Shown here piece by piece: positions 6,509-58,160 of a stretch of 59,608 bases of DNA. Position 1 is the stretch's first letter, and each line of letters begins with the position of its first letter. A program made the translations under genes and the position numbers. The notes below the pieces were generated by a model that saw nothing but the letters and a program-made list of their open reading frames with translations, had not been told where the DNA came from and ran no database searches. Source of the DNA: a virus. Lineage: Duplodnaviria > Caudoviricetes. Where the stretch lies: the IMG/VR virus record IMGVR_UViG_3300043602_000092, positions 1 through 59,608 of that record; one strand, 5' to 3'.

Positions 6509-6560
6509 ATGGACCATATGTGGCCCATCCTGCTGGGAAAGGCAAGGCCGCCTTATCATT
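6509..6560 (-). promoter_or_regulatory. Putative early promoter/operator, divergent from terS
   Basis: Near-duplicate of 4168-4219. Confidence 0.75.
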
Positions 6561-6588
6561 TTTCTCGAATAAAAGTCGGAGGTGAATA

Positions 6589-7284
6589 ATGCCCGAAGAT
6601 CAGGCTCTTAGTGGGGAGGCCCCTGAAATCGCAGGGGAAAACAGGCCCGCCCCGGATCAGGCCGCCCCGCCCCAAGGGGATCAGGCGGCCCCGGCGGCCC
6701 CGGATCAGGCCCAAGGCGATCAGGCCCCGCGCGGGGCATTGATGACCGCCGATATGGCGGGCCGCCTCATAATGAAATCAGGCGAGCGGGTTCGCCAACT
6801 CGCAAAGGAGGGGTGGATACCAAAGCACGGAACCGGCCAAGGTGCGCGCTATGCCTTGGTGGATGTAGTGCAAGGTTACATTCGGTTCCGCGATGACGTA
6901 GACCGTCGCGGTCAGAAGACCGCCGCCGCCACGCGCATCTCAGACGCACGCGCTCGCGAGATTGAATTGCGAACCGCGATCCGAGAAGGCCGTCTTATCG
7001 ACCTTGACGAAGCACTTGATGCAGTGGAGGAATTGATAGGTCTGCTCCGCACCGAGTTGTCGGGGTTGCCTGCACGCTGCACTCGCGACTTGCAGATCAG
7101 GCGCACAATTGAAACGGTTCGCAATGACATCCTCGACCGCATCGCTGATCTTGCCGAGCAGAAAGCAAAAGATATGGGAACGCGTCGGTCTGCTGGCACG
7201 GCCATCGAAGCCAATGCCACCGGACAAGTGGGCGGAAACGAACCGAACCCATCCGCAGACATCCGGGGTGCCGGGTCCGCGTGA
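6589..7284 (+). CDS. Terminase small subunit (Nu1-like)
   Basis: GGAGG RBS; wHTH-like ERVRQLAKEGWIP followed by helical region; precedes the large subunit. Confidence 0.75.
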   Translation: MPEDQALSGEAPEIAGENRPAPDQAAPPQGDQAAPAAPDQAQGDQAPRGALMTADMAGRLIMKSGERVRQLAKEGWIPKHGTGQGARYALVDVVQGYIRFRDDVDRRGQKTAAATRISDARAREIELRTAIREGRLIDLDEALDAVEELIGLLRTELSGLPARCTRDLQIRRTIETVRNDILDRIADLAEQKAKDMGTRRSAGTAIEANATGQVGGNEPNPSADIRGAGSA

Positions 7285-56107: not shown

Positions 56108-56165
56108 AATATCTGGCCCCGCCTGAAACGGGTTTGGTTTGCAACGCAACAGGGGAGCATGGCCT

Positions 56166-56915
56166 TTGAGCTTGGCGATTGATCGCGACGATGGCCCCGG
56201 ATCGGGCCTCACCTATCGGCCCATTGGCGACCTGAGGGCCTATGCCCGCAATAGCCGCACCCATACTGCGGAACAGGTGCTGGAGATTGCGGGATCAATC
56301 CGGGGATGGGGATGGACCATGCCCGTTCTGGTCGATCCGACCGGGGAGATTATCGCGGGGCACGGGCGGGTGCTGGCGGCGGACCTGATCTATCAGGGCC
56401 GCGACGGCAACCCGGCGGGCACCCTGAGGATGGCGACGGGCGAGGCGATCCCGGCGGGGATGATCCCGGTGCTGATCGCGGCGGGATGGACCCCGGAGCA
56501 GACGCGGGCCTATGTGATTGCGGACAATAAGATCGGTGAGAACGCGGGCTGGGATCAGGAAATCCTCCGGGTCGAGTTGAATGACCTGAGGGAACTTGGT
56601 GTCGATCTGGGCACCTTGGGCTTCGATGAAGCGGACTTGCGGGAACTCGCCATCGGGGTCGAGGCGTTGGGCGCGATGCCGGAACTGAATAGCGGTGAGC
56701 GCTCAGAGTTTCGCGAGATGACATTCGTGCTGCTGGCCGACCAGGCGGACGCAGTTGCCGAGGCGGTGAAGTTGGCGGTCGAGGTGCTGGGTCCGCTGAC
56801 CGATGCGAACCGGAACCAGAACCGGAACGGCAATGGTCTGGCAGAGGTGTGCCGTGCGTATCTGGCGGCGGCCCATGATGACGAACCGGACATGAGGCCG
56901 CGCGACGAGAATTGA
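56166..56915 (+). CDS. ParB/Srx N-terminal domain protein of the DNA-modification-associated type
   Basis: YARNSRTH, GWTMPVLVD, IIAGHGR, YVIADNK; start uncertain. Confidence 0.88.
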   Translation: MSLAIDRDDGPGSGLTYRPIGDLRAYARNSRTHTAEQVLEIAGSIRGWGWTMPVLVDPTGEIIAGHGRVLAADLIYQGRDGNPAGTLRMATGEAIPAGMIPVLIAAGWTPEQTRAYVIADNKIGENAGWDQEILRVELNDLRELGVDLGTLGFDEADLRELAIGVEALGAMPELNSGERSEFREMTFVLLADQADAVAEAVKLAVEVLGPLTDANRNQNRNGNGLAEVCRAYLAAAHDDEPDMRPRDEN

Positions 56916-56936: not shown

Positions 56937-57110
56937 ATGGCTAAAGTTGAACCCAAGATGACGAAGAATGCGATGGCGGCGGCGATCCTCGCGATGCCCT
57001 ATGGCGAATTGATCAAGGTCGCGGAGCAGTTGGCCGACATCAAACTGTCGCGCCTTGAGACGCGCGAGGATTTTGCAAAGCTCCTGCACGATTGGGCGGA
57101 CGGGCAATGA
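56937..57110 (+). CDS. Hypothetical protein, 57 aa
   Basis: Manual translation MAKVEPK...LLHDWADGQ; ATGA coupled to the Mom-like gene. Confidence 0.65.
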   Translation: MAKVEPKMTKNAMAAAILAMPYGELIKVAEQLADIKLSRLETREDFAKLLHDWADGQ

Positions 57111-57829
57111 CCGCGTTGGTGAATGCCAAGTCGATCAGGCTTGAGCCGATTGAGAAGCGCGATGCCGACGCCTTGGTGAAGCGGGTCCACTATTCGGGCA
57201 AGTATGTTCGGAACTCGTCGCTATCGCTGGGCGTCTTTCTCAACGGTCGCCTTGAAGGCGCGATGCAGTTCGGATCGTCGCTCGACAAGTCGAACGTCAT
57301 AGGTCTGGTGAGGGATACGCCGTGGAATGGATTTCTCGAATTAAACCGGATGGCGTTCAGCGACGTCTTGCCGAGGAACTCCGAAAGCCGCGCGCTGGGG
57401 ATCGCGCTGCGGATGATCAAGAAAAGTTATCCGCACATCGAGTGGGTGGTGAGCTTCGCGGACGCCTGCCAGTGTGGCGACGGGACTATCTATCGAGCCT
57501 CAGGGTTCGTCCTCACCAAGATCAGGGTGAACAAGGACGTGCTGCGATTTCCGGACGGGACCATCGGGCACAAGATGACGCAAGTGACGGGGAAAAATAG
57601 GCTTGCGCACTTCGCGAAGAACGGCGGCCTCTGGTCGGGATCAGGCGATGCGATCCCCGGCTTCATGCTGCGCTATATGTATTTCATCCACCCGACTGCA
57701 CGCGGGCGCCTGACCGTTGCAGAGGTTCCCTTCTCAGAGATAGACGCAAAGGGAGCGGGGATGTACAAGGGCAAGCCGATTGTGCGTGGGAAGCAGGCGA
57801 TGACCGGGCACCACCCGGAACAGCGGTGA
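57107..57829 (+). CDS. Mom-family (GNAT fold) adenine modification enzyme, copy 2
   Basis: HYSGK, LELNRM, PRNSES, VVSFAD, GTIYRASGF, RYMYF. Confidence 0.85.
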   Translation: MTALVNAKSIRLEPIEKRDADALVKRVHYSGKYVRNSSLSLGVFLNGRLEGAMQFGSSLDKSNVIGLVRDTPWNGFLELNRMAFSDVLPRNSESRALGIALRMIKKSYPHIEWVVSFADACQCGDGTIYRASGFVLTKIRVNKDVLRFPDGTIGHKMTQVTGKNRLAHFAKNGGLWSGSGDAIPGFMLRYMYFIHPTARGRLTVAEVPFSEIDAKGAGMYKGKPIVRGKQAMTGHHPEQR

Positions 57830-57853
57830 GGCAGCGACAACCCCCACGCTCCA
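57784..57853 (+). tRNA. Degenerate tRNA-Gly-like element (anticodon ACC)
   Basis: 7-bp acceptor GCGTGGG/CCCACGC, U discriminator, encoded CCA; CCGG/CCGG stem with GC-ACC-AC loop; D and T arms non-canonical. Confidence 0.65.
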
Positions 57854-57865
57854 ATCGGTCTTGAT

Positions 57866-58027
57866 TTACTCGTTGGAAGTGGTGACCTGATCCTTGGGAA
57901 CGCACTTTTCCGAGCCGTCCTGCAAGGTGACGACAACCTGATCCTCGTCGCCGTCCTTGAAGCCTTCGTCGCCTTTCTTGGCGGGGCGTGAGCTTCGGAT
58001 CGGTCGGCCTTGATAGGTCTGTGGCAT
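57866..58027 (-). CDS. Hypothetical protein, 53 aa
   Basis: GGAGG RBS; manual translation MPQTYQGRP... Confidence 0.6.
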   Translation of the reverse strand: MPQTYQGRPIRSSRPAKKGDEGFKDGDEDQVVVTLQDGSEKCVPKDQVTTSNE

Positions 58028-58160
58028 TGTATTTCCTCCGGTTTTCGCAACGGCAGGGGTGCCGTCGCGATCACAACGCGGATGGAACCGGAGAGTTGCA
58101 CCGAGTGCAGTGCGTTCGTGCGTGGTGGTCCTGGGTCCGCCTGGGTCCGCGAAGCACTAT

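What the first reader, a model, noticed from the sequence alone, without database searches (positions are those of the whole stretch)
57107..57853. Cryptic tRNA-Gly-like RNA overlapping the 3' end of a Mom-family gene: a possible private glycine donor for DNA hypermodification
Seen: 57784-57853 has a perfect 7-bp acceptor stem (GCGTGGG/CCCACGC), then T and an encoded CCA. A CCGG/CCGG stem closes a 7-nt loop GCACCAC with ACC (Gly) at the anticodon position. The D arm is vestigial, the T loop reads GGCAGCG rather than TTCRANY, and the T stem has a bulged A. The element overlaps about the last 14 codons and the TGA of the Mom-like gene. Known: G1-C72, C2-G71, G3-C70, U73 and C35/C36 are the bacterial GlyRS identity elements; Mu Mom has been reported to use glycyl-tRNA-Gly as donor for adenine modification; staphylococcal non-proteinogenic tRNA-Gly species escape EF-Tu through altered T arms. 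Inference: the RNA keeps what is needed for charging and has lost what is needed for translation, so it may supply Gly to Mom outside the ribosomal pool. Standard tRNA finders would probably miss it.
Basis: partly seen in the sequence, partly recalled or inferred. Interest (0 to 1): 0.92.

Follow-up and report, generated by a model that had tools for sequence, protein, structure and literature searches.

The report
Phage tRNA-Gly mimic tied to Mom
The 70-base stretch at the end of this phage's Mom gene belongs to a conserved, previously undescribed family of glycine-tRNA-like genes found beside one branch of Mom DNA-modification genes in over 200 phage sequences, and it probably gives the enzyme its own supply of activated glycine.

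Summary
Window 57784-57853 has the acceptor stem, U73-CCA, NCC loop, reduced D region and bulged T stem as described. On its own it looks like chance: fold z is -0.49, no tRNA finder or Rfam family matches, and acceptor+CCA sites occur at the shuffled rate. Comparison with other phages shows it is real.

- **Mom to element:** 104 of 108 loci chosen only for a Mom relative carry the same element. The other 4 are Mom fragments.
- **Blind model test:** a covariance model built from 21 full-cloverleaf relatives, without the window, gives one hit in the 59.6-kb phage. It covers exactly 57784-57853 (38 bits, E 1e-7).
- **Covariation:** 97-98% of cells pair, against about 38% when partners are slid. 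13 of 17 and 16 of 21 pairs show double changes.
- **Invariant features:** G1-C72, C2-G71, G3, U73, C35/C36 and a bulged A in the T stem.
- **Degraded decoding features:** U33 in 22 of 77, G55 in 79 of 91, loops of 6-8 nt, and a D arm that is often reduced.
- **Element to Mom:** of 122 IMG/VR sites with the bulged-T-arm motif, 111 touch a Mom gene (86 after it, 25 before it).

Mu-type Mom genes lack the element. The best reading is a dedicated, non-ribosomal glycyl carrier for Mom. Charging and use by Mom are untested.

The parts
56139..56915 (+). ParB-like gene upstream of Mom. The same ParB-Mom-element order is seen in Psychrobacter phage Y8A.
   Evidence: phrog_620 ParB-like partition protein, E 5.9e-41. 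Order in L109: ParB/sulfiredoxin, Mom, two elements, terS.
56937..57110 (+). 57-aa ORF of no known family. Its TGA overlaps the Mom ATG (ATGA).
   Evidence: No Pfam or PHROG match.
57107..57829 (+). Mom-family gene (240 aa). The Mom domain covers residues 10-210. Codons 226-240 and the stop are spelled by the 5' two-thirds of the tRNA-like element.
   Evidence: PF25680, 173.6 bits, E 5.3e-51. phrog_1384, E 1.2e-43.
57784..57853 (+). tRNA-Gly-like element, 70 nt, of the short class with a reduced D arm.
   Evidence: The only hit of model R1 in the whole window: 38 bits, E 1.1e-7, model positions 1-76. R1 was built without this sequence.
57784..57790 (+). Acceptor stem, 5' strand GCGTGGG (G1, C2, G3 invariant in the family).
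57791..57803 (+). 13-nt connector that replaces the D arm.
57804..57818 (+). Anticodon-like arm: CCGG / loop GCACCAC / CCGG. C35 and C36 equivalents are at 57811-57812. Position 33 is C, not U.
57825..57842 (+). T arm: GGTGA (holds the Mom TGA), loop GGCAGCG, then ACA-A-CC with the bulged A at 57840. The closing pair is an A.A mismatch in this copy.
   Evidence: The bulged A is present in 91 of 91 distinct elements.
57843..57853 (+). Acceptor stem 3' strand CCCACGC, then U73 (57850) and the encoded CCA (57851-57853).
   Evidence: Sequence identity between loci falls from 0.74 to 0.28 immediately after the CCA.
57866..58027 (-). Convergent 53-aa ORF that ends 13 nt after the CCA. It marks the end of the mom-element unit.
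   Evidence: No family match.

Best explanation
Window 57784-57853 is a gene for a tRNA-Gly-derived RNA belonging to a conserved family physically coupled to one clade of Mom genes. I propose five steps. (1) The RNA is transcribed with mom. (2) It is cut out to a 68-76-nt molecule ending in CCA. (3) The host glycyl-tRNA synthetase charges it with glycine, because it keeps the bacterial glycine identity set. (4) Mom uses it as the glycyl donor for N6-adenine modification of phage DNA. (5) Its altered T arm, D region and anticodon loop keep it away from EF-Tu and the ribosome, so Mom has a private pool of activated glycine late in infection.

Shown here: the family, its structure, its invariant residues and its two-way linkage to Mom. 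Inferred: steps 1 to 5.
For: **Conservation beside Mom.** Of 108 loci fetched only because they encode a Mom relative, 104 carry the element next to Mom. These are the 21 used to build R1, 53 of 57, and 30 further loci. The 4 without it (L024, L026, L027, L028) hold only Mom fragments.

**Structure.**
- Long class (21 sequences): 98.4% of 437 cells pair, against 75.3% shuffled and 36-46% slid. 16 of 21 pairs change on both sides.
- Short class, including the window (45 sequences, MAFFT only): 97.5% of 764 cells pair, against 77.7% shuffled and 35-41% slid. 13 of 17 pairs change on both sides.
- RNAalifold predicts the same helices and the bulge without any input from me.

**Conservation is at the RNA level, not the protein level.**
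- U73 falls in codon phases 1, 2 and 0 in 33, 30 and 10 of 73 read-through ORFs. Eight loci have the stop codon inside the element.
- In Psychrobacter phage Y8A both copies are intergenic.
- The change that creates the stop in the window and L001 (T stem GGCGC to GGTGA) is compensated in L001 by GCG to TCA beyond the stop.
- Boundaries are sharp. Mean pairwise identity is 0.74 over the last 20 nt against 0.28 after the CCA, and 0.585 over the first 20 nt against 0.33 before G1.

**Glycine identity.** G1, C2, G3, G71, C72, U73 and C74 are invariant in 91 of 91 distinct elements. C35 and C36 are present in 77 of 77 seven-nt loops, and all 91 loops contain CC. These match the identity set in PMC9976931. 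ARAGORN labels 7 elements tRNA-Gly. The true tRNA-Gly(UCC) of a host genome has the same GCG...CGC-T-CCA ends.

**Loss of decoding features.**
- U33 in only 22 of 77 loops.
- Position 34 is A in 38 of 77.
- Loops of 6, 8 or 11 nt in 14 of 91.
- G55 in 79 of 91.
- An invariant bulged A between positions 63 and 64, inside the three T-stem pairs said to set EF-Tu affinity (PMC7826273).
- TGC or GGC in place of TTC in the T loop, which parallels the staphylococcal non-proteogenic tRNAGly.

**Reverse linkage.** 86 have Mom directly upstream and 25 have Mom directly downstream on the same strand. For example, L190 runs element 6534-6609, then Mom from 6620, PF25680 E 6.6e-39.

**Copy number.** Tandem copies occur in L109, L146, L197 and L233. 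This fits a product that acts in trans and is dosage dependent.

**Enzyme requirement.** Mu Mom needs Gly-tRNAGly and rejects Gly-tRNAAla.
Against: - There is no evidence that the RNA is made or processed. The only RNA run is held as contigs and covers just 57520-57754.
- Mu Mom works with all three ordinary E. coli tRNAGly. Mu, D108, PAN70, pAEv1818, SWEP2, Alsa_3, AS-szw, VP16 and Phynn have no element. So a private tRNA is not needed for the chemistry.
- The window's copy is one of the weakest (38 bits, 89th of 94). It has an A.A mismatch closing the T stem and another at the outer anticodon-stem pair, so it may be decaying.
- Cutting the RNA at G1 would sever mom from its stop codon in most loci.
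- Charging of D-arm-reduced, non-U33 molecules by GlyRS is untested. The review notes that T. thermophilus GlyRS also reads G10, U16 and C50-G64.
- EF-Tu avoidance is inferred from sequence only.
- Exceptions to the linkage: L183 (ParB, element, terminase, no Mom seen) and L144 (Mom 1.4 kb away).
Confidence: 0.6

Rival explanations
1. A tRNA mimic that acts in cis on the mom transcript. Mom, GlyRS or RNase P would bind or cut the tRNA-shaped part of the mom mRNA to limit or time synthesis of a toxic enzyme, or to stabilise the 3' end. The RNA would not serve as a glycyl donor.
For: The element overlaps the mom reading frame or abuts it in 111 of 122 sites and in 104 of 108 Mom loci. Cleavage at G1 would remove the stop codon in 73 of 82 distinct tails. 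Mom expression is tightly controlled in Mu (abstracts listed). Silva et al. suggest that Mom recognises the acceptor end.
Against: An operator would not need an invariant encoded CCA, U73 and C35/C36 together. The element works on either side of mom, and as tandem intergenic copies. That fits a diffusible product better than a fixed cis site. Full cloverleaves with D arms persist in 28 of 91 distinct elements.
Confidence: 0.15
2. An ordinary phage tRNA-Gly used in translation, either to supplement codons or to replace host tRNA-Gly hit by a defence nuclease. On this view it merely sits next to mom.
For: Phage tRNAs are common, and anticodon-loop variants that evade host nucleases have been described (PMC10264068, abstract). 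Some long-class members look nearly canonical. L058 reaches the Rfam tRNA threshold (30.6 bits against 29). ARAGORN elements tRNA-Gly. L190 has a canonical D arm and a TTCAATT T loop.
Against: The bulged A in the T stem is invariant (91 of 91). G55 occurs in 79 of 91, U33 is missing in 55 of 77, A34 occurs in 38 of 77, and loops are not 7 nt in 14 of 91. The D arm is reduced in about two-thirds of elements. The linkage to Mom runs both ways. It is the only tRNA-like gene in a complete 59.6-kb phage.
Confidence: 0.1
3. A decoy for host factors that attack Gly-tRNAGly or its acceptor end, such as GNAT toxins of the TacT type or tRNA nucleases. It would protect the host pool that Mom and translation both need.
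For: TacT recognises U73 plus G71 (PMC9976931 passage). Both are invariant in the family.
Against: This does not explain why the element is tied to Mom rather than spread among phages. No such host factor is seen in any locus.
Confidence: 0.05
4. A chance inverted repeat, a conserved protein tail, or a phage attachment-site copy of a host tRNA 3' end.
For: Within the window alone the fold and motif counts are at chance level.
Against: Covariation, three-phase reading and intergenic copies argue against chance or a protein tail. The prophage copy in Bradyrhizobium sp. TZ2 shares only the last 7 nt (CGCTCCA) with that host's tRNA-Gly, which is too little for an att core. The window is a complete virus record, not a prophage junction.
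Confidence: 0.02

Closest known systems
Non-proteogenic tRNAGly NP1-NP3 of Staphylococcus aureus and S. epidermidis, the glycyl donors for FmhB/FemA/FemB (PMC7826273, passages read)
   Same: Both are extra tRNA-Gly species that keep charging by GlyRS. Both lack the TTC/pseudouridine T-loop signature (TGC or TGT in staphylococci; G55 in 79 of 91 elements here). Both are altered in the part of the T stem that sets EF-Tu affinity. Both are paired with a tRNA-dependent transferase that works outside the ribosome.
   Different: The elements are phage-borne and sit beside or overlap the transferase gene. The recipient is DNA adenine rather than a peptidoglycan precursor. They carry an invariant bulged A in the T stem and often a reduced D arm and an odd anticodon loop. 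Weak EF-Tu binding has been measured in staphylococci but not here. That paper says such tRNAs were known only in staphylococci.
Phage Mu Mom with host Gly-tRNAGly (Silva et al. 2026, PMC13219725; sections 9, 10 and 14 read)
   Same: The enzyme family is the same (PF25680). The presumed chemistry is the same: glycyl transfer from a tRNA-Gly acceptor end to N6 of adenine.
   Different: Mu, D108 and seven other Mom-bearing phages tested have no element and rely on host tRNA. The paper does not mention tRNA-like, phage tRNA, viral tRNA or ParB. Its supplements could not be seen.
Canonical bacterial and phage elongator tRNA-Gly (Rfam RF00005)
   Same: Both have a 7-bp acceptor stem, U73-CCA and C35/C36. 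The long class has a four-arm cloverleaf. A host tRNA-Gly(UCC) scores 49.6 bits with the family model.
   Different: The elements have a bulged T stem and G55, frequently lack U33, and have loops of 6-8 nt. About two-thirds have a reduced D arm. Most score below the Rfam and ARAGORN thresholds.
3' tRNA-like structures of plant RNA viruses, and tmRNA
   Same: A tRNA-shaped, possibly aminoacylatable module is joined to a coding RNA.
   Different: There is no pseudoknotted acceptor. The host is a DNA phage. The module lies on either side of the gene or in tandem. ARAGORN finds no tmRNA.

Membership tests
Canonical elongator tRNA (Rfam RF00005 / ARAGORN) | Score at or above the curated threshold (29 bits), or a call by a tRNA finder | tested here: not met
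   Window: no ARAGORN gene and no Rfam tRNA match at E <= 10. In the family, L058 scores 30.6 bits. ARAGORN of about 230 elements.
Canonical elongator tRNA (Rfam RF00005 / ARAGORN) | Four-arm cloverleaf with a D arm | tested here: not met
   The window has a 13-nt connector in place of the D arm. The 75-77-nt class has a covarying D stem.
Canonical elongator tRNA (Rfam RF00005 / ARAGORN) | 7-nt anticodon loop with U33, and a T loop starting T54-T55-C56 | tested here: not met
   In the window the loop is GCACCAC (C33) and the T loop is GGCAGCG. In the family U33 occurs in 22 of 77 and T55 in 11 of 91.
Substrates of bacterial GlyRS (glycine identity set) | U73, G1-C72, C2-G71, C35, C36 (PMC9976931, section 23) | tested here: met
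   All are present in the window and invariant in 91 of 91 distinct elements. C35/C36 are present in 77 of 77 seven-nt loops.
Substrates of bacterial GlyRS (glycine identity set) | Actual glycylation | not testable with these tools
   This needs an aminoacylation assay.
Non-proteogenic tRNAGly (staphylococcal type) | Glycine identity kept, T loop lacks TTC, T stem altered | tested here: met
   The T loop starts GGC in 31, TGC in 24, CGC in 8, AGC in 8 and TTC in only 6 of 91. The bulged A is present in 91 of 91. Compared with passages of PMC7826273.
Non-proteogenic tRNAGly (staphylococcal type) | Weak EF-Tu-GTP binding and no ribosomal decoding | not testable with these tools
   Inferred only from the position of the bulge within the first three T-stem pairs.
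Non-proteogenic tRNAGly (staphylococcal type) | Preferred use by a dedicated tRNA-dependent transferase | tested here: inconclusive
   The genomic linkage to Mom is very strong. There are no biochemical data.
Mom protein family (PF25680), for the overlapping gene | Pfam score above the gathering cut-off over the whole domain | tested here: met
   173.6 bits against a cut-off of 27.1, profile positions 2-201 of 202.
Phage attP copy of a host tRNA 3' end | A long identical stretch shared with the host tRNA, located at a prophage end | tested here: not met
   Only 7 nt are shared with the host tRNA-Gly in Bradyrhizobium sp. TZ2. The window is a complete virus with terminal repeats.

The most novel reading that the evidence does not exclude
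Mom of this clade and its tRNA-like RNA form an orthogonal enzyme-carrier pair, and RNA maturation controls enzyme dosage. The invariant bulged T arm would be both a positive determinant for Mom and a block to EF-Tu, so glycine is channelled to DNA without touching the translational pool. The RNA is also embedded in the mom reading frame. Each RNase P cut that matures a carrier would therefore leave a mom message without a stop codon. Carrier supply and synthesis of a toxic enzyme would be reciprocally coupled on one transcript.
Probability: 0.2. Interest if true: 0.95.

Novelty: new variant of a known kind. Interest (0 to 1): 0.9.

Why it matters
Dedicated non-ribosomal tRNAs were known only from staphylococcal cell-wall synthesis (PMC7826273). 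Mom's need for Gly-tRNAGly was reported only in 2023-2026.

A phage-encoded, structurally stripped tRNA-Gly welded to the Mom gene would be the first carrier RNA dedicated to DNA hypermodification. It would show how a virus insulates a tRNA-consuming enzyme from EF-Tu and translation. It would also offer a natural orthogonal tRNA scaffold only 68-70 nt long, with no D arm and a bulged T stem.

The finding explains the odd, frame-shifting C-terminal tails of annotated Mom proteins. It also shows that tRNA finders and published phage annotations miss a whole RNA family.

It is directly testable in a cultured system (Psychrobacter phage vB_PmaS_Y8A, two intergenic copies) and in Bradyrhizobium prophages.

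Tried and rejected
- **Single-sequence tests.** Fold z-score, motif counts, ARAGORN and Rfam give no signal in the window. They were superseded by the comparative analysis.
- **Conserved protein tail.** Rejected because the conserved 3' end is read in all three phases, stops fall inside the element, and some copies are intergenic.
- **attP or host tRNA fragment.** Rejected.
- **Expression.** Of the 24 listed runs, 23 are marked 'DNA?' (soil, rhizosphere or unlabelled metagenomes) and one is an RNA run holding a 0.07 share. When laid, its single 235-nt contig covers 57520-57754 only. Contigs cannot show RNA ends. This is no evidence either way.
- **Terminators.** The scan finds none in the window. 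In L033 it finds only a minus-strand site. In L015 it did not list the hairpin plus T-run that I read about 35 nt after the CCA and that RNAfold folds. I draw no conclusion.
- **RNase P cue.** The base at -1 is not conserved: C 50, T 23, G 11, A 7 of 91.
- **Tree of 194 Mom proteins (FastTree).** The element-before-Mom order needs 4 changes on the tree, and at least 3 are forced by supported branches. Many long-branch warnings apply, and element-less Moms scatter. I take this only as a hint of repeated rearrangement.
- **Specificity of R1.** R1 does not separate the family from true tRNA-Gly: a host tRNA-Gly scores 49.6 bits. The bulged-T-arm motif does separate them.
- **Anticodon loops of 68-nt members.** MAFFT suggested 5-nt loops. 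The CM alignment fits 7-nt loops by shifting the stem, so I dropped that claim.
Full report
**1. What the window shows**

The window is a complete virus record of 59,608 bp with direct terminal repeats (CheckV 100%). The ORF 57107-57829 is a Mom-family protein. It matches PF25680 (E 5.3e-51, residues 10-210 of 240) and phrog_1384. A ParB-like gene precedes it (56139-56915, phrog_620), followed by a 57-aa ORF whose stop overlaps the Mom ATG.

- A perfect 7-bp stem GCGTGGG/CCCACGC, then T, then CCA.
- A CCGG/CCGG stem closing the loop GCACCAC.
- No D arm.
- The T loop GGCAGCG.
- A bulged A at 57840.

The element starts in codon 226, after the Mom domain has ended. The TGA lies in the 5' strand of the T stem.

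**2. Alone, the element is not distinguishable from chance**

- The fold z-score is -0.49, and 57 of 200 shuffles fold at least as well.
- ARAGORN finds nothing in the window.
- Rfam finds no tRNA at E <= 10.
- A perfect 7-bp stem plus N-CCA occurs 4 times in the window, against 4.55 +/- 2.1 in shuffles.
- With an internal 4-bp stem and 7-nt loop the count is 1 against 0.76.
- Only the added requirement of CC at the loop centre is rare (0.05 per shuffle), and that requirement was chosen after the fact.

**3. Comparison changes the picture**

I fetched loci solely because they encode a Mom relative: 28 from genomes and 80 from IMG/VR, the latter being the best 80 of 154 relatives.

The Mom C-terminal tails looked like one nucleotide motif read in different frames. 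After anchoring on the conserved G.MY.G motif, 81 of 82 distinct homologue tails showed the same unit. The one mis-parsed locus, L059, was recovered later. The unit has these parts:
- GCG plus four variable bases.
- An NCC-containing hairpin.
- A T arm ending in CCGACC or a variant of it.
- The exact complement of the four variable bases.
- CGC-T-CCA.

The acceptor stems differ between loci by compensatory changes. For example, the window has GCGTGGG/CCCACGC, L047 has GCGCCCG/CGGGCGC, L067 has GCGCATC/GATGCGC and L102 has GCGGGGA/TCCCCGC.

There are two length classes:
- 75-77 nt, with a full D arm.
- 68-71 nt, with a short connector instead. The window belongs here.

**4. Structure tests**

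| Set | Cells paired | Shuffled | 3' partners slid | Pairs changed on both sides |
|---|---|---|---|---|
| Long class, 21 sequences, MAFFT, cloverleaf with a one-base T-stem bulge | 98.4% of 437 | 75.3% | 36-46% | 16 of 21 (107 cells) |
| Short class, 45 sequences, MAFFT only; includes the window and two phage Y8A copies | 97.5% of 764 | 77.7% | 35-41% | 13 of 17 (139 cells) |

RNAalifold on the short-class alignment predicts the same three helices and the same bulge on its own.

I built a covariance model, R1, from the long class only. It gives one hit in the whole window on both strands. That hit is exactly 57784-57853, at 38 bits and E 1.1e-7.

R1 also hits 53 of 57 loci and 31 of 31, of which 30 were new. 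Together with the 21 training loci, 104 of 108 Mom-selected loci carry the element. The four without it have only Mom fragments (query residues 23-182, 6-149, 8-96 and 8-96).

**5. The conservation is in the RNA, not the protein**

- In 73 of 82 distinct tails (the 81 parsed homologue tails plus the window's own; L059 left out) the ORF runs through the element. U73 then falls in codon phase 1, 2 or 0 in 33, 30 and 10 cases. Eight tails, counting the window's, have the stop inside the element.
- Element lengths of 68, 69, 70 and 76 nt shift the frame within the supposed coding tail.
- In Psychrobacter phage vB_PmaS_Y8A the Mom CDS ends 8 nt before the first of two tandem copies. Both copies lie in the gap before terS and neither is annotated.
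- Mean pairwise identity is 0.74 over the last 20 nt and 0.28 over the 20 nt after the CCA. It is 0.585 over the first 20 nt and 0.33 over the 20 nt before G1. The unit runs from G1 to A76.
- The window and L001 have GGTGA where the Bradyrhizobium copies have GGCGC in the T stem, and this creates the stop. L001 compensates with TCA for GCG on the far side, beyond the stop. The window has ACA, leaving one A.A mismatch.

**6. What is kept and what is lost**

These figures come from 91 distinct elements aligned to R1.

Kept:
- Invariant in 91 of 91: G1, C2, G3, G71, C72, U73, C74 and the bulged A between T-stem positions 63 and 64.
- Position 70 is C in 86 and U in 5.
- C75 is present in 89 and A76 in 87.
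- C35 and C36 are present in 77 of 77 seven-nt loops, and CC is present in all 91 loops.

These are the bacterial glycine determinants (U73, G1-C72, C2-G71, C35, C36; PMC9976931, section 23 passages).

Lost or relaxed:
- U33 is present in 22 of 77 loops.
- Position 34 is A in 38, U in 25, C in 13 and G in 1.
- Loops of 6, 8 or 11 nt occur in 14 of 91.
- Position 55 is G in 79 of 91.
- T loops start GGC, TGC, CGC or AGC in 71 of 91 and TTC in only 6.
- The D arm is reduced in about two-thirds.

For comparison, the staphylococcal non-proteogenic tRNAGly carry TGC or TGT instead of TTC and bind EF-Tu weakly. EF-Tu affinity for the tRNA body is set by the first three T-stem pairs (PMC7826273 passages). 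The invariant bulge lies inside those pairs.

A true tRNA-Gly(UCC) from a host genome (Bradyrhizobium sp. TZ2) has the same GCG...CGC-T-CCA ends but canonical D and T arms.

**7. Linkage tested in the other direction**

The motif GGCGG-N7-CCGACC-N4-CGCTCCA, which includes the bulge, was scanned over all IMG/VR contigs. All 120 loci give full-length R1 hits. I then searched these loci with a Mom profile built from the first set:

| Position of Mom relative to the element | Sites (of 122) |
|---|---|
| Directly upstream, same strand | 86 |
| Directly downstream, same strand | 25 |
| 1.4 kb upstream (L144) | 1 |
| None seen | 10 |

Of the 10 with no Mom seen, 8 have under 300 nt of upstream sequence in the locus.

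- In L190 the order is a DUF1599 gene, the element (6534-6609), then Mom from 6620 (PF25680, E 6.6e-39).
- L130 has a different GNAT (PF00583) tail to tail with the element.
- L183 has ParB_N, the element and a terminase, with no Mom.
- Tandem copies occur in L109, L146, L197 and L233.

**8. Limits of the family**

R1, run with filters off, finds nothing near the Mom genes of Mu, D108, PAN70, pAEv1818, Arthrobacter SWEP2, Staphylococcus Alsa_3, Aeromonas AS-szw, Enterococcus VP16 or Pantoea Phynn. The best score is 10.7 bits.

In the cultured-phage collection only phage Y8A (49% identity) belongs to the window's Mom clade. The next best is Mu-type at 36%.

**9. Detection and prior knowledge**

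- ARAGORN of about 230 elements. Seven are labelled tRNA-Gly and 12 are labelled 'tRNA-???' with a two-base anticodon.
- Of the 18 loci scanned, Rfam's tRNA model reaches its threshold at the element only for L058. L102 and L099 match tRNA-Sec weakly.
- The paper describing phage Y8A used tRNAscan-SE and states that no tRNA genes were identified (PMC10434257 passages).
- Silva et al. 2026 have zero occurrences of tRNA-like, phage tRNA, viral tRNA, ParB or C-terminal. Their supplements were not available.
- Four library searches found no description of such an element.

I therefore regard the family as undescribed within what could be searched.

**10. Mechanism**

Mom needs Gly-tRNAGly, accepts all three E. 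coli isoacceptors and rejects Gly-tRNAAla. Free aminoacyl-tRNA is scarce because EF-Tu sequesters it, and EF-Tu inhibits the staphylococcal transferase by doing so.

An RNA that keeps exactly the GlyRS determinants and the CCA end, loses decoding features, and is welded to mom in two gene orders and in tandem copies is best read as a dedicated glycyl carrier for Mom (confidence 0.6). Transcription, processing, charging, EF-Tu avoidance and use by Mom are all inferred.

- **Main rival:** a purely cis-acting tRNA mimic that controls the mom message (0.15).
- **Ordinary decoding tRNA:** disfavoured by the invariant bulge and the loop and D-arm changes (0.1).
- **Decoy role:** 0.05.
- **Chance, a protein tail or attP:** excluded by the calls above.

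The window's own copy is a weak member (38 bits, 89th of 94, with two A.A mismatches). It may be less functional than its relatives.

**11. Verdict**

This is a new, widespread variant of the non-proteogenic tRNA idea, here attached to a DNA-hypermodification enzyme. It can be tested directly in a cultured phage.

Noticed in passing
window 56139-56915; L109 1897-2508; L183 9924-10487: A ParB-like (ParB_N/sulfiredoxin) gene sits just upstream of the Mom-element unit in the window and in Psychrobacter phage Y8A. In L183 it sits next to an element with no Mom at all. It may be a third partner of the system.
   Followed up: partly
window 56937-57110: A 57-aa ORF with no family match ends in ATGA, overlapping the Mom start codon. 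The position recalls com in Mu, but the protein has no cysteines.
   Followed up: no
L130 35-556 (+) and 558-631 (-): An element lies tail to tail with a GNAT of a different Pfam family (PF00583, E 7e-6) instead of Mom.
   Followed up: partly
L102 453-527: A canonical tRNA with a CAU anticodon (Rfam 56 bits; ARAGORN tRNA-Met) lies 1.7 kb upstream of Mom in a locus that also has a full-cloverleaf element.
   Followed up: no
G001:C1 7421029-7421098 (+), 7428059-7428128 (-), 7752281-7752350 (+): Bradyrhizobium sp. TZ2 carries three Mom-element units. Two of them are 7 kb apart and convergent.
   Followed up: no
L245 (G001:C1 167496-167566): A weak R1 hit (24.3 bits, E 0.056) with GCG...CGCTCGA ends and no ARAGORN call. 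It may be a decayed element or chance.
   Followed up: no
L157, 4-439 and 740-1184 nt after the element: Two successive Mom-domain ORFs follow a single element.
   Followed up: no
Alignment A3, anticodon position 34: G34, which would give the GCC anticodon, is almost absent: 1 of 77 against A 38, U 25 and C 13.
   Followed up: no
OQ059336.1 39393-40157 (from PMC10434257): Phage Y8A is reported to have a second, Mu-like Mom (ORF69), far from the ParB-Mom-element unit. My tblastn at E <= 1e-3 found only one place in that record.
   Followed up: no
L190 6127-6528: The gene just upstream of the element is a DUF1599 protein ('nucleotide modification associated domain 1', E 5e-7).
   Followed up: no
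window 58034-58069 (-): A weak Rfam PhotoRC-I match (13.3 bits against a threshold of 45, E 1.4). Most likely chance.
   Followed up: no
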